From Eledone cirrhosa (Eukaryota): a DNA stretch of 64,000 nt. Under the pieces are notes generated by a model, which was given only the letters and a program-made list of their open reading frames with translations, searched no databases and was not told where the DNA came from. Shown here one piece after another: positions 2,360 to 58,970 of the stretch. The stretch is taken from contig OZ024741.1 of NCBI GenBank assembly GCA_964016885.1, positions 176,886,001 to 176,950,000 on the forward strand, read 5' to 3'. The position numbers were made by a program, and so were the translations under genes. The number at the start of each line of letters is the position of its first letter. Within the stretch, counting starts at the first letter, position 1.

Positions 2360-3285
<926 letters not shown>

Positions 3286-3330
3286 AATAAAATCTGGAGA
3301 AGGAGTACATGGATTGGAATATATATAATA

Positions 3331-21020: not shown

Positions 21021-22050
21021 TATAAACGTAAATGCGCGTGTAGTTATTGCTGTTAGTTGTGAGGCATTCTCGTTGCTTTTGTTATTATCTGAGCAATGGC
21101 ATAGCAAAGAAACATTTAACAGCAATAAACAAGAACAATGGATACCTGTTGCCCAGACACGATTGGTGAGAGAAGACACTATTTAACTTAAAGAGTTGGG
21201 GAAACACCATGAATAAAACTCGGGTACACAGCAATTGAAAAAAAGCAGACACGTTGGCTAGAAGTAATGAACATTACATGGCGACTTCAGATTCCACCAT
21301 TTAGAAAGTAGATATTTCTACCACACAAACACTAATGAGAAACTATATTCAGTGCGTCATATATTAGCTGAATTAACATTAAGATAGAACTAAATTACCT
21401 ATGTCATATCAGCATAACAGCATAATCACTTTAGTTACCTGTGCTAAAATGTGTGATGTTACAGTGGAACCAGTTGCTGATGTTTTTAAGGGAGGGTAAT
21501 TCAGAATTTAGCTATAATTAGATAAATCCTTTAAAGAATCTTAGGGAGGCAACTAACAAAATAATATTGGACTTATCCACCCTATGTCAATGGGACGAAA
21601 CCTTGCCCGGTGTGTAACTCGGAAAAGTGGCATATAAACTCACAACAGGGTTTAGAGAAATGATGCTTAAATACCCAACTCGATTGCTTTAGTTTCTGTC
21701 CTCATTAAACAACATTCATTCTAAAATTGGTACAGGCCGGATTAACGGAATTTATTTTTTTCGATTTCTCATCTTAACACTTTTTATTATTATATTCTTT
21801 AAGGGGTTAGCTAAATTCGGGATTACCTACCGGTAGAAACCTCAGTTGCATTTTCTAGAATCTTCTGTTGGGGGACCGATCTTTGTTTATATAAAAGGCT
21901 CGATGAGTTGGGTATAAACACAGAGATAATTAAATAACTGCATATGTTACTGTTCAAACTAATTATGCTTAACTCGTCGTATGGACTGAGTGTTCTTACC
22001 CTAAGATATTTATACCACATTTCTACTACAGTATATATATATATATATAT

Positions 22051-22475
22051 ATTAGTATTGGTGCTCTGAAATAACGATGTAGATATGAATATACGTATAG
22101 TACATTTAATAATATACTGTATGTTTATTTAAAACATTTTGAAGATTATTCGCTATGACCTTTAAATCAGTAACTAACGTTACATAATTAGTCTCGACAA
22201 TAGCAAAGCGGTGTAATCGATAGTCAACGTTTCTCACTTGTAAGTGGTTGTCAAGACTACATACCCCTTCACTTCTGCAGAGAGTTATAGTAGCTGGATT
22301 CTTATAGAATTTCTAAGTGGTATGTATTCTTCAAAACAACTTACAAGCGTTGCCTTTGCGGAGACTAGGTATGTGACGTTAGTCACTGCTTTAAAATTCA
22401 TACAGAATGGCCTTCAAAATATTTTAAAATAAACATACACTATATTATAAAATATGGTATACGTACATTCATATA
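22051..22475 (-). mobile_element. Fold-back, hammerhead-bearing non-autonomous PLE-like cassette in (TA)n
   Basis: Imperfect inverted arms at about 22085-22210 and 22345-22472. Tail 22051-22078 is shared with the 40 kb cassette. Hammerhead at 22221-22259. Confidence 0.75.
22221..22259 (-). ncRNA. Minimal type I hammerhead (U3-A8 variant)
   Basis: UAGUC-UUGACAA-CCACUUACAAGUGA-GAAA-CG-UU-GACUA; C.A mismatch at the base of helix II. An identical copy lies at 22939-22977. Confidence 0.7.
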
Positions 22476-22715
22476 TACACATATATATATATATATGTAT
22501 GTATGAATATTGGCTTCCTAAATACATAAGTGTTTTCCTCCTGAAAAATGTTATCATATTTCTCATTCTTTCTTCTGATGAAGGGCTAATGTGTAAAATG
22601 TTAAGACTCTCTCCTACGATATTAAGCGTTAAACTATTATATAACATCATTGACCTGTATTGTTCTACCTGTTTTATTTTTCATGTCGACTGATCTCACA
22701 AATAGACACACCCAC

Positions 22716-22787
<72 letters not shown>

Positions 22788-22856
22788 AAAAAGGGATGAA
22801 ATCGAAAATGCAACTGAAGTCTTATTTTTTTTAAAAATATATATATTTATTTGGTT

Positions 22857-22894
22857 CCTTTACCGGTTTCGCAGTTCTTCTGCTTTTCAAAAGG
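22857..22894 (-). ncRNA. Minimal type I hammerhead, inverted copy
   Basis: Exact reverse complement of 23175-23212. Confidence 0.85.
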
Positions 22895-23174
22895 TGAGTT
22901 GAGATGGAGGGTCTGTGGCTTTTCTCACATGTAATCGATAGTCAACGTTTCTCACTTGTAAGTGGTTGTCAAGACTACATACCCCTTCACTTCTGCAGAG
23001 AGTTATAGTAGCTGGATTCTTATAGAATTTCTAAGTGGCATGTATTCTTCAAAACAACTTACAAGCGTTGCCCTTGCGGAGACTAGGTATGTGACGTCAG
23101 TCACTGCTTTAAAATTCATACAGAATGGCCTTCAAAATATGTGAGAAAAACCACAGACCCTCCATCTCAACTCA

Positions 23175-23212
23175 CCTTTTGAAAAGCAGAAGAACTGCGA
23201 AACCGGTAAAGG
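23175..23212 (+). ncRNA. Minimal type I hammerhead (U3-A8 variant)
   Basis: CCUU-UUGAAAA-GCAG(AAGAA)CUGC-GAAA-CCGG-UA-AAGG, with AATAAA just downstream. Confidence 0.85.
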
Positions 23213-23384
23213 AACCAAATAAATATATATATTTAAAAAAAAAATAAGACTTCAGTTGCATTTTCGATTTCATCCCTTTTTCTTTATACTTCCACTCGTG
23301 TAGGACACCTCGGTTATTTTTCATTTTGTAAAAAAAACCTCACTTTCTAATATATATATATATATATATATCGATAGATTTTGA

Positions 23385-25280: not shown

Positions 25281-25383
25281 ATTACTATTATTATAAATGT
25301 GAAGACGAAAATCTAAACAGGGCTTGATAGGGACAATATATATATATATCAAAATATATAAAACCATAGTGCAAATATTTATT

Positions 25384-25514
25384 AAAATAACAGATTAAAG
25401 CTTAAGCAAAGAGTCGCTGCTTTCACCCTTAACGGGATATTCTGAAACAGTATCAGAAGATCCCGTTCAGGGTGAAAGCACCGATTCTTTGCTTAAGCTT
25501 TAATCTGTTATTTT
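25384..25514. repeat. Near-perfect 131-bp palindrome between microsatellites
   Basis: AAAATAACAGATTAAAGCTTAAGCAAAGA... pairs with ...TCTTTGCTTAAGCTTTAATCTGTTATTTT. Confidence 0.9.
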
Positions 25515-25520
25515 GATATG

Positions 25521-33377: not shown

Positions 33378-33801
33378 CATATATATGTGTGTGTGTGTAT
33401 ATATACAAAATCGTTTAACTTCAAAACAAATTTTTCTATACGAAGTTAATTAGAGGGAGTAAGAGATCAACATTGTAAAGCAATACTAACATTCGTGCCA
33501 TTCAGAAAAACATGTGACCAATTTCGAAAATTTATTTTTCATCTAAACAATGAAAATTAGCTAAATAAGTTGTCTTATTCAACAACTCAACTTCCCATCT
33601 GATCCAGTATTCATACAGACACATATCTCTAGCATAGGTATAGGAGTGTTTCAGCATACGGCTTTCTCTGACCCGAAACCGCATTAGAAGTTCTATCAGT
33701 GTATATATATATATATGACGAAGGAAGTGTGGTAAGGAACCAGGTGGACCATAACGCACCAGAGTACTCAATACTTAGGGTAGTAGAGTGGGATATAGGA
33801 A

Positions 33802-33908
33802 AATGTTCAAAAACCCGACGGCAGAGCTCAAGCCGTTTCGACGGCTATTTCTGGACAGAAATAGCCGTCGAAACGGCTTGAGCCCCTGCTGTCGGGGTCT
33901 TGAACATT
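33802..33908. repeat. GC-rich 107-bp palindrome with a 28-bp perfect core stem
   Basis: 33826-33853 is the exact reverse complement of 33856-33883. Confidence 0.92.
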
Positions 33909-33945
33909 CTCCTCCCCCTATACACACACACACACACACACACAA

Positions 33946-39655: not shown

Positions 39656-40000
39656 ACTATATCGTATGTAACCGACTAAGTTGAAAGAAAGTGATATATG
39701 TATGGGTCTTAACCTACGAAGTTTGACAATTCTAGGACTAGGATGAAGATAAATCTATCACTAAATGTGTTAATACATAAATCATATAAAACAACTGGGA
39801 TTGCGAAAATCTCCAAAATATATGACAAGGTTACGAAGCAGATCAAGAATCAGGTGTTAGGGACGTGACACAGAAATCTTCGATATTTAATATTAAATAA
39901 TGATTAATAATAATATTTATTTAATTATATGTCTAGCGGCGTATACGCGTTTAGATTTGTATTTTTGTCTTTGAAATTATACATACATGCATACATACAT

Positions 40001-40115
<115 letters not shown>

Positions 40116-40130
40116 GTGTGTGTGTGTATA

Positions 40131-40192
<62 letters not shown>

Positions 40193-40319
40193 TGTATATA
40201 TAGTGTATTTTGCAATACACTGTATGCTTAATTAAAAGCATTTCGAAGACCTTACGCTATTGTTTTAGAGTAGTGACAGTCTCACTTACTTTAAATGTTC
40301 AGCAAACAAGGGGAGATAA

Positions 40320-40364
40320 AGCTGACAGAGCTCTGTTTCGTACTCTTTGGTACTTATCAAAGCT
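40320..40364 (-). ncRNA. Type I hammerhead, inverted copy
   Basis: AGCU-UUGAUAA-GUAC(CAAAGA)GUAC-GAAA-CAGAGCUCUG-UC-AGCU. Confidence 0.88.
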
Positions 40365-40617
40365 AAGTACTCCACATGTCTGCTGAAAATCATGAATGTT
40401 TGATTCTTAACGAATTTTATTAATAATCAGGAACTGATTATACAGAGCGGTTGCAGGTCAAGCAGAAATTGATATATGTATCGTTATTTCAGAGCACCAA
40501 TTCTAATTTTCAATTTCTGCTCGAACTGCAATCGCTCTGTATAATCAGTTCCTGATTATTACTAGAACTCTATAAGAATCAAACATTCATGATTTTCAGC
40601 AGACAGGTGGTGTACTT

Positions 40618-40662
40618 AGCTTTGATAAGTACCAAAACGTACGAAACAGAGCTCTGTCAGCT
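40618..40662 (+). ncRNA. Type I hammerhead (U3-A8 variant, GUC site)
   Basis: AGCU-UUGAUAA-GUAC(CAAAAC)GUAC-GAAA-CAGAGCUCUG-UC-AGCU; helix III is a 10-nt palindrome. Confidence 0.9.
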
Positions 40663-40823
40663 TTATCTCCCCTTGCTTGCTGAACATTTAAAGTAAGTGA
40701 GACTTTCACTAGTCTAAAACAATAGCGTAAGGTCTTCGAAATGCTTTTAATTAAGCATACAGTGTATTGCAAAATACACTATATATACATTCATATATAT
40801 ATATCGCTATTTCACAGCACCAA

Positions 40824-41203
<380 letters not shown>

Positions 41204-41871
41204 TTGGGTCGTCAAGTTTGAAATGTGTAGAAATTTGTCTTTCACTTCTACACATTCTACAAATGTTATACTTGATGACCCAACATATATATATATATAT
41301 ATTCATTAGTTAGGCAAAACAAGACCACATATTTCACAAGGAAGACATTATTAAAAGATTGTCAACATATTTTAGTTTGATGTAAGGAATGTAGAGAATA
41401 ATAATAATATTAATAATAATAATGTCCGTTTACAACTGTTTCGCTACTCCATATAATATTTCTGGATCAAATGATTATAGATCACTATTGATCTGGTTCA
41501 GTTGAAAATAATTAACTTAGGTAAAAATAGCGCAGCTCATCGGCATTTTAAAAGGAATATAAATTAAAATAAGGAAAGATTATTTTAATTTATTTTACTT
41601 TTGAAGTCCCGATGAGCTGCTCTATTTTCAATTATGTTAATTATTTTCAACTGAACGATTCAACTGAAAATTGTGGTCTTGTTTTGCTTAACTAATTAAT
41701 ATTTCCAGCTCTGTGCACCTAACCTCTGCATGAACCCAGCCACCTAGCTGCCCCCCACTGCATATTGCACATTGAGCACATGCCTTTACGTTTTGCCTTC
41801 TAACTACTTCACCAATATCTCTTCTCCTCTCATATCTCCATCTCTCTCTTTAAGATTGGTTACTCTTGAAT

Positions 41872-58499: not shown

Positions 58500-58574
<75 letters not shown>

Positions 58575-58577
<3 letters not shown>

Positions 58578-58860
58578 AAGACGTAAAATAAAAAAATTTG
58601 AAAAAAAATTAAAGATTAACTTACTTACTAAAATTTTCACTCCAACTAATTAGTTTCTGTAATGGGATAAAGTCCCTAGTGTCCGCGCATTGCCTGGAGA
58701 CTTAGCTGAGAATAGACTCCCTGATGACGTAATGAATTCTCGATGGTTATATTACGTAACTATCTTTATCCCATTACAGAAACTAATTAGTTGGAGTGAA
58801 AATTTAGTATGTAAGTTAATCTTTAATTTTTTTTTTATTTTCTTATTTTACGTCTTTCAC
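58575..58860 (+). mobile_element. Fold-back hammerhead cassette next to (TA)n
   Basis: Inverted arms 58575-58672 and 58764-58858. Confidence 0.85.
58716..58797 (+). ncRNA. Type I hammerhead with extended helix II
   Basis: ACUCC-CUGAUGA-CGUAAUG[37 nt]CAUUACA-GAAA-CUAAUUAG-UU-GGAGU; 8-nt palindromic helix III; C.A mismatch at the base of helix II. Confidence 0.8.
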
Positions 58861-58970
58861 ATTATTGTTCTGCATCCTCCTGCATTGAACCACCTAGGTA
58901 CTATGACATAACCTATGTATTTGCTAGCATTAGTGTACATCTGTACGCATATGTTGGTAGATATACTAAA

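What the first reader, a model, noticed from the sequence alone, without database searches (positions are those of the whole stretch)
22781..23350. Fold-back ribozyme cassette has captured a 211-bp copy of adjacent DNA in its loop
22930-23140 duplicates 22212-22422, 718 bp upstream, with three substitutions by eye. The copied piece includes the other cassette's hammerhead and crosses that cassette's own fold-back junction, so it was probably copied from this locus. It lies exactly between 150-bp inverted arms of an unrelated hammerhead family. Inference: RT template switching onto nearby target DNA during integration created a chimera with three ribozymes, and this is a route for shuffling sequence.
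Basis: partly seen in the sequence, partly recalled or inferred. Interest (0 to 1): 0.75.

Follow-up and report, generated by a model that had tools for sequence, protein, structure and literature searches.

The report
Penelope insertion patched with nearby DNA
Two back-to-back ends of a Penelope-type jumping gene enclose a 211-base copy of DNA lying about 360 bases away, and at least 13 other copies of this element do the same with their own neighbouring DNA; the patch was likely copied while the insertion was being closed, a rare by-product with no sign that it spreads further.

Summary
In detail: 22930-23140 copies 22212-22422 (3 changes), crosses the older cassette's junction (found only at these two places in the genome) and sits between 150-bp inverted arms. 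The arms are the ribozyme-bearing 3' end of a young, high-copy Penelope-like element with RT and C-terminal GIY-YIG. They join at the element's predicted RNA start, 30 nt behind a TATA box. Capture recurs: in 17 of 22 hand-picked foreign loops the own flank was the best match among 59 loci (14 strong, this one included). Sources lie on either side, in either orientation, at a median of 521 bp and none under 295 bp. Loops are as old as the arms (1.8% divergence each), and I estimate about 1% of fold-backs carry one. Likely mechanism: both cut ends prime cDNA on one RNA, and one cDNA end copies nearby DNA before the two join. Whether RT or a host polymerase does this is open. The three ribozymes are incidental and predicted to fold shut; no further spread of a loop was seen. 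L1 has similar templated insertions, reported much closer to the cut. This scan noted single cases in other genomes; the statistics are what this locus adds.

The parts
22078..22479 (.). Older, decayed fold-back of another hammerhead-bearing family (arms 67.7% alike; junction near 22311); donor locus
22212..22422 (+). Source of the copied segment, 359 bp from the insertion's left edge
22220..22260 (-). Type-I hammerhead motif (U3-A8 core) of the older cassette
22719..22784 (.). (TA)n target tract, left part
22781..22930 (-). Short arm: 3' end of the Penelope-like element, from the predicted RNA start to the inner end point (arm position 150)
22855..22896 (-). Type-I hammerhead motif (U3-A8 core) in the short arm
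22930..23140 (+). 211-bp templated copy of 22212-22422; about 1 nt and 2 nt shared with the arms at its two junctions; three T>C changes
22938..22978 (-). Copied hammerhead motif of the older family
23139..23288 (+). Long arm: same 150 nt of the element, sense on +
23173..23214 (+). Type-I hammerhead motif (U3-A8 core) in the long arm
23289..23350 (+). 62-nt one-sided tail, ending at the outer end point (arm position 212)
23350..23371 (.). (TA)n target tract, right part

Best explanation
This is a short head-to-head insertion of a Penelope-like retroelement into a (TA)n tract whose two halves enclose a copy of nearby DNA, likely made by the element's reverse transcriptase during integration. 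[quoted passage not shown] Inferred: a short RNA starts at the hot spot; both target strands are cut and each 3' end primes a cDNA on the same RNA, one at each fixed point; both cDNAs run to the RNA's 5' end; here the right-hand cDNA then annealed by about 2 nt to the + strand at 22422, copied 211 nt, and joined the left-hand cDNA by about 1 nt; second strands were filled in. In most insertions the two cDNA ends join directly. The captured ribozyme is there because the neighbour happened to be another such element.
For: Family: 10,256 exact copies of a 37-mer from the arm; a 775-codon open frame with RVT_1 (E 1.3e-6, just under Pfam's cut-off) and GIY-YIG (E 2.9e-6, above it) lies upstream of the same arm in L164. 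Ends: 77 of 97 arm pairs end at positions 150 and 212. One RNA source: arms agree at a subfamily site in 91 of 93 pairs, against 55% by chance. Two cDNAs rather than one cDNA folding back: the short arm outruns the tail arm by over 20 nt in 13 of 90 pairs, the reverse in 10. Hot spot: 1,584 fold-backs with a 0-44-nt spacer, 239 with 45-400 nt, 6 at the ribozyme cut site; TATAAAA starts 30 nt upstream. Local capture: own flank was best of 59 loci for 17 of 22 loops; 14 of 17 sources lie within 1 kb (P 2e-7 against uniform). Timing: loop against source 25 of 1,379 differences, arm against arm 27 of 1,473. In vitro a Penelope protein cuts and extends both strands and starts at two sites that bound the tail (PMC11167929, parts 1-2 of 4 read).
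Against: Nothing here identifies the polymerase. Four of 22 loops have no source within about 4.8 kb (L096, L101, L102, L169), and for L181 another locus scored slightly higher on the trimmed loop. Loops were picked by eye from patterns anchored at the hot spot, and simple-repeat loops were dropped, so captures of adjacent (TA)n would be missed. Arm concordance could also come from later conversion between arms. All four substitutions in the left arm and loop here are T>C, which this model treats as chance or polymerase error. The RNA start is inferred from DNA only.
Confidence: 0.55

Rival explanations
1. Same two-cDNA intermediate, but a host repair polymerase (polymerase theta or microhomology-mediated template switching) copies the flank while joining the two cDNA ends.
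For: Junction matches are 1-2 nt. All four side and orientation classes occur about equally (4, 4, 4, 4, 1 unassigned). Templated insertions are a known scar of such repair (search listing and abstract starts only). The L1 study PMC11702581 attributes similar inserts to processing of break ends and leaves the enzyme open (passages).
Against: Loops reach 200 nt with no more differences than the arms, and no source lies nearer than 295 bp (P about 0.02, threshold chosen after the fact). From recall, polymerase theta patches are usually shorter and closer.
Confidence: 0.27
2. The arms first joined directly; the perfect palindrome later broke at its tip and was repaired with a templated patch.
For: Direct joins are the common form (1,584). 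Long perfect palindromes are fragile (recalled).
Against: Both arms here still reach within about 3 nt of the hot spot, and loops are no younger than arms (1.8% against 1.8%). Repair soon after insertion cannot be excluded.
Confidence: 0.08
3. The RT jumped onto a local RNA, a minus-strand transcript through the older hairpin that had been A-to-I edited, so the loop is a cDNA.
For: All four substitutions are A>G on the minus strand with A or T on their 5' side; the source base is the older state at all three loop sites by the partner arm, one of them in a gappy stretch. Earlier notes report edited RNA copied into this genome (e1-8806526, e1-8673030; not checked here).
Against: Only 6 of 25 differences in the other 16 loops are T>C or A>G, and 12 of 181 one-arm variants are A>G. 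Sources lie on both strands and both sides, which would need transcripts everywhere. Four events, noticed after the fact.
Confidence: 0.08
4. Assembly artefact.
For: The region is repeat-rich and holds a long hairpin.
Against: Copy and source differ at three sites, the arms at one, both junctions fall at the family's hot spot, and 16 other loci show the same build.
Confidence: 0.02

Closest known systems
Inverted-pLTR insertions with one-sided tail of endonuclease-bearing Penelope-like elements (PMC8557442, PMC3846280; passages read)
   Same: Head-to-head 5'-truncated copies, tail on one end only, (TA)n target, hammerhead in the pLTR, TATA box in the pLTR. PMC3846280 also reports unrelated DNA captured between pLTRs and host-derived spacers.
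   Different: The tail is 62 nt against the 30-40 described. The passages read do not trace captured DNA to the insertion's own flank; PMC3846280 proposes self-priming for the inversion, whereas here either arm can be the longer.
Poseidon element PAc in vitro (PMC11167929; parts 1-2 of 4 and passages read)
   Same: Cuts and extends both strands, starts at two internal RNA sites that bound the tail, does not need ribozyme cleavage.
   Different: How the two products are joined is left open in the parts read; no flank capture is described there. The element here has the Neptune/Nematis-type linker.
L1 templated insertions and twin priming (10.1101/2024.08.27.596794, passages and section 4 part 1 of 2; PMC11702581, passages)
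   Same: Genomic DNA under 250 bp duplicated into the insertion; two target ends prime on one RNA; rare (22 cases beside 3,598 truncated L1s, about 0.6% by my division; about 0.8% estimated here).
   Different: L1 templates are said to lie typically within 15 bp of the site; here 295-3,815 bp, median 521. Here both cDNAs copy the same RNA stretch, giving a palindrome, and the patch lies between them. The preprint's supplementary figure on distances could not be seen.
Hammerheads of metazoan Penelope-like elements (PMC4209133; passages)
   Same: Type-I motif, short palindromic helix III, U3-A8 core variant, pairs of motifs 100-700 bp apart on opposite strands.
   Different: That work does not address what lies between the two motifs in the passages read.

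Membership tests
EN+ Penelope-like element (parent of the arms) | One ORF with RT and C-terminal GIY-YIG endonuclease | tested here: met
   775-codon frame in L164; RVT_1 at 295-441 (28.7 bits, cut-off 29.6), GIY-YIG at 682-772 (27.9, cut-off 22.6); DKG and YLDD motifs; same arm follows it at 99%
EN+ Penelope-like element (parent of the arms) | Partial tandem pLTR and inverted 5'-truncated copy | tested here: met
   L165 holds an inverted arm, a partial tandem and a full copy
EN+ Penelope-like element (parent of the arms) | Tail at one end only | tested here: met
   77 of 97 pairs end at 150 and 212; 62 nt, longer than the 30-40 described
EN+ Penelope-like element (parent of the arms) | Hammerhead motif in the pLTR | tested here: met
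   Descriptor match with U3-A8 core; no Rfam hit at gathering score
EN+ Penelope-like element (parent of the arms) | Ribozyme self-cleavage | not testable with these tools
   Needs an RNA assay
EN+ Penelope-like element (parent of the arms) | Target-site duplication | tested here: inconclusive
   Both ends lie in (TA)n
Neptune/Nematis type | CX2-5CxxC linker and CCHH motif in the nuclease | tested here: met
   Linker at 645-653, two Cys inside the GIY-YIG core, His 711 and 728; features from PMC8557442
Neptune/Nematis type | Placement in an RT tree | not tested
   No tree was built
Hydra clade | Lacks the CCHH motif | tested here: not met
   Motif present
L1-type templated insertion | Genomic template under 250 bp duplicated into the insertion | tested here: met
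   211 bp here; 17-211 bp over 17 loci
L1-type templated insertion | Template typically within 15 bp of the insertion site | tested here: not met
   359 bp here; minimum 295; simple-repeat loops were excluded
Pack-type DNA transposon or MITE | Symmetric terminal inverted repeats moving the same cargo to many loci | tested here: not met
   Ends are asymmetric, arms are a retroelement's 3' end, this loop is at no other locus
Non-LTR retrozyme | Direct tandem units, each with a hammerhead | tested here: not met
   Motifs in the arms are inverted and point outward; definition recalled

The most novel reading that the evidence does not exclude
The Penelope RT itself, holding both cut ends, reaches back onto looped duplex DNA about 0.3-0.9 kb away on either strand and uses it as a bridge between its two cDNAs. 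The roughly 1% of insertions with such patches would then be a genome-wide ruler of the integration complex, and direct evidence for how the two cDNAs are joined, the step left unexplained in the in vitro work.
Probability: 0.25. Interest if true: 0.65.

Novelty: new variant of a known kind. Interest (0 to 1): 0.4.

Why it matters
How Penelope-like elements build their inverted ends and close an insertion is an open question. This family gives countable evidence: one RNA source for both arms, either arm can be the longer, joining at the predicted RNA start, and a minority of joints patched with DNA from a few hundred bases away. The distance pattern differs from what is reported for L1 and can be tested with the published in vitro system. 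As a source of genome change it is minor: small local duplications in about 1% of fold-backs, with no sign of further spread.

Tried and rejected
Read support: 14 runs listed, best share 0.39, no RNA holder listed. Laid runs were short-read contigs plus one RAD-seq run; no listed piece bridged either loop junction, and one 72-nt contig followed the source allele and the source's continuation. Contigs drop variants, so this shows neither an empty allele nor an artefact. An empty orthologous site could not be sought: no relatives are held. DNA search of the arm returned nothing because common words are skipped. The 39-mer proved to be linear family sequence, not the junction; one search replaced it. 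One search found nothing and is not used. Family-wide A>G bias (editing or error-prone synthesis): not seen. Ribozyme cut site as joining point: 6 cases against 1,584. Single cDNA folding back on itself as the general route: contradicted by 13 of 90 pairs. A fixed side or orientation of capture: not seen. Enrichment of capture at the hot spot: cannot be claimed, the sampling was anchored there. The simple-repeat mask was too aggressive and was redone with much the same result. L041's loop against the family's protein: only a 10-residue match, E 0.035, no Pfam hit. Searches for a published account of flank capture in Penelope joints found none; the library lacks most subscription journals, and bioRxiv supplements were closed.

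Full report
1. Observation. 22930-23140 repeats 22212-22422 at an offset of 718 with three substitutions, each T in the source and C in the copy. It lies between arms 22781-22930 and 23139-23288, which differ by one substitution (22919) and a shift in a T/A tract. The source belongs to an older fold-back, 22078-22479, 67.7% alike between arms. Two relatives of that older family stop matching at 22311, so the copy crosses its junction. A 32-mer over that junction is found at 2 places in the genome with up to 3 mismatches, both here. My descriptor finds three type-I hammerhead motifs with a U3-A8 core in the insert and the parent motif in the source; Rfam finds none at gathering score. The U3-A8 variant and opposite-strand pairs are described for Penelope-like elements in PMC4209133 (passages).

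2. What the arms are. A 37-mer from the arm has 10,256 exact matches. Longer copies lead upstream into a GIY-YIG frame, and many places hold an open frame of 775 codons. [quoted passage not shown] By the features in PMC8557442 (passages) this is a Neptune/Nematis-type element, not Hydra; no tree was built. L165 shows the usual build: inverted short arm, partial tandem, full copy. The window's insert is the shortest common form: two outward-pointing copies of the last 150 and 212 nt in a (TA)n tract.

3. How the family inserts. Of 98 loci given, 97 yielded an arm pair; the set is enriched for short fold-backs. 77 of 97 end at arm positions 150 and 212. Arms share subfamily letters in 91 of 93 pairs at one site and 90 of 93 at the next, against about 55% by chance, so both come from one source. 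Among 90 pairs with a clear long and short end, the short-ended arm reaches over 20 nt further 5' in 13 and the tailed arm in 10. A single cDNA folding back on itself cannot give the first class. Genome-wide, 1,584 fold-backs have a spacer of 0-44 nt between two fixed anchors, 239 have 45-400 nt, and 6 join at the ribozyme cut site. The hot spot lies 30 nt behind TATAAAA, the usual spacing to a start site (recalled). I infer a short RNA copied twice, once from each cut end. PMC11167929 (parts 1-2 of 4 read) shows in vitro cutting and extension of both strands, two start sites bounding the tail, and no need for ribozyme cleavage.

4. Do other copies capture their own flank? Yes. In the first 50 listed of the 239 long-spacer fold-backs, 3 held a copy of their own flank (L055, L069, L082), 1 held foreign DNA with no local source (L096), 2 had 13-15-nt oddities, and the rest were element sequence or simple repeats. 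Extrapolated, that is about 14 of 1,823, or 0.8%. Patterns aimed at foreign loops gave more. I picked 22 non-simple loops by eye, this one included, dropped simple-repeat loops, and compared each with the flanks of all 59 loci held at 8-10 kb. The own flank was best for 17 of 22; 14 of these are 27 nt or longer at 94% or more, and 3 are only 15-21 nt. L181 matched another locus slightly better on its trimmed part, though its whole loop matches its own flank at 91%. Four had no local source. For the geometry I used 17 loci (L181 in, the 15-nt L168 out): distances 295-3,815 bp, median 521, 14 within 1 kb; tail side or short side, direct or inverted, 4 each, 1 unassigned, with the side label unreliable in three loci. 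A quarter of non-simple flank within 1 kb lies under 290 bp, so 0 of 14 there has P about 0.02, with the threshold chosen after the fact. Loop against source differs at 25 of 1,379 sites in 16 other loci; arm against arm at 27 of 1,473 in 14 of them. The patches are as old as the insertions.

5. Mechanism. Shown: local origin, recurrence, equal age, position at the joint. Inferred: two target-primed cDNAs reach the RNA's 5' end; one end anneals by 1-2 nt to nearby DNA, copies it, and joins the other. For this locus the simplest path is the right-hand cDNA copying the + strand from 22422 to 22212. I favour the element's RT (0.55) over a host polymerase (0.27), mainly because the patches are long, accurate and distant; this step is untested. 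The equal use of both strands and the gap near the cut would fit looping onto duplex DNA (optimum near 500 bp, recalled), but dropped simple-repeat loops weaken this.

6. The four T>C changes. All four substitutions in the left arm and loop are A>G on the minus strand, and the source base is the older state by the partner arm. This could be edited RNA. Against it, 6 of 25 differences in other loops and 12 of 181 one-arm variants (A>G in the sense strand) are of that kind. One other loop has three C>A changes. I leave it at 0.08.

7. Ribozymes and shuffling. One motif lies on + and two on -. An RNA across the insert is predicted to fold as one long hairpin (about -304 and -311 kcal/mol) that pairs both arm motifs and most of the captured one. 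The loop takes the place of the TATA box, upstream of the predicted RNA start, so the family's short RNA would not carry it. It is at no third place.

8. Relation to what is known. The fold-back with tail is standard for this class (PMC8557442, PMC3846280; passages). PMC3846280 reports unrelated DNA between pLTRs without tracing it to the flank in the passages read. L1 makes templated insertions, typically under 250 bp and within 15 bp of the site (10.1101/2024.08.27.596794, passages and section 4 part 1; supplements not seen); PMC11702581 reports three more (passages). Searches found no paper on flank capture in Penelope joints. My reading was fixed before the look-ups; the scan has noted single such cases in other genomes and the two-end model in this one (unchecked notes).

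9. Verdict. Real, recurrent, mostly explained: a new variant of a known kind. The locus itself is a by-product. The value lies in the family statistics, which bear on an unsolved step of Penelope integration. Interest 0.4.

Noticed in passing
window 2798-3294, 25380-25518, 33797-33913, 39978-41021, 41496-41656, 58572-58862, 21477-21845: Further fold-backs in the window; the one near 40.2-40.8 kb has stretches related to the older cassette's ends.
   Followed up: no
L041/L101 loop 1515-1704 (G000:C5:57.328 Mb): 190-nt loop with no local source; reads as an open frame on the minus strand with a 10-residue match to the family's protein, possibly a piece of another Penelope-like ORF taken up by a jump between RNAs.
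   Followed up: partly
L096 4908-5063 (G000:C2:51.058 Mb): 156-nt foreign loop with no source within about 4.8 kb.
   Followed up: partly
G000:C27:4048420-4049234 and L048: Tandem arrays built from the joint itself, with 130-bp and about 54-bp units; repeated template jumps or later slippage.
   Followed up: no
L056, L063, L070, L084, L086, L089, L093: Many joints hold short reiterated pieces of the element's own 5' end, as if the polymerase restarted several times on the RNA's first bases.
   Followed up: no
L034/L181 loop: Three C>A changes within 55 nt of a captured loop, a second case of clustered same-type changes.
   Followed up: partly
L053 and L054 (G000:C1:76.405 and 76.410 Mb); G000:C12:25.358 and 25.361 Mb: Near-identical complex fold-backs 4.6 kb and 2.9 kb apart, probably local tandem duplications.
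   Followed up: no
L172: The two arms differ at subfamily sites, so this insert may come from two different RNAs; its 38-nt loop has two local copies.
   Followed up: no
all loci held: Several other hammerhead families with C3-G8 cores and palindromic helix III occur in the flanks.
   Followed up: no
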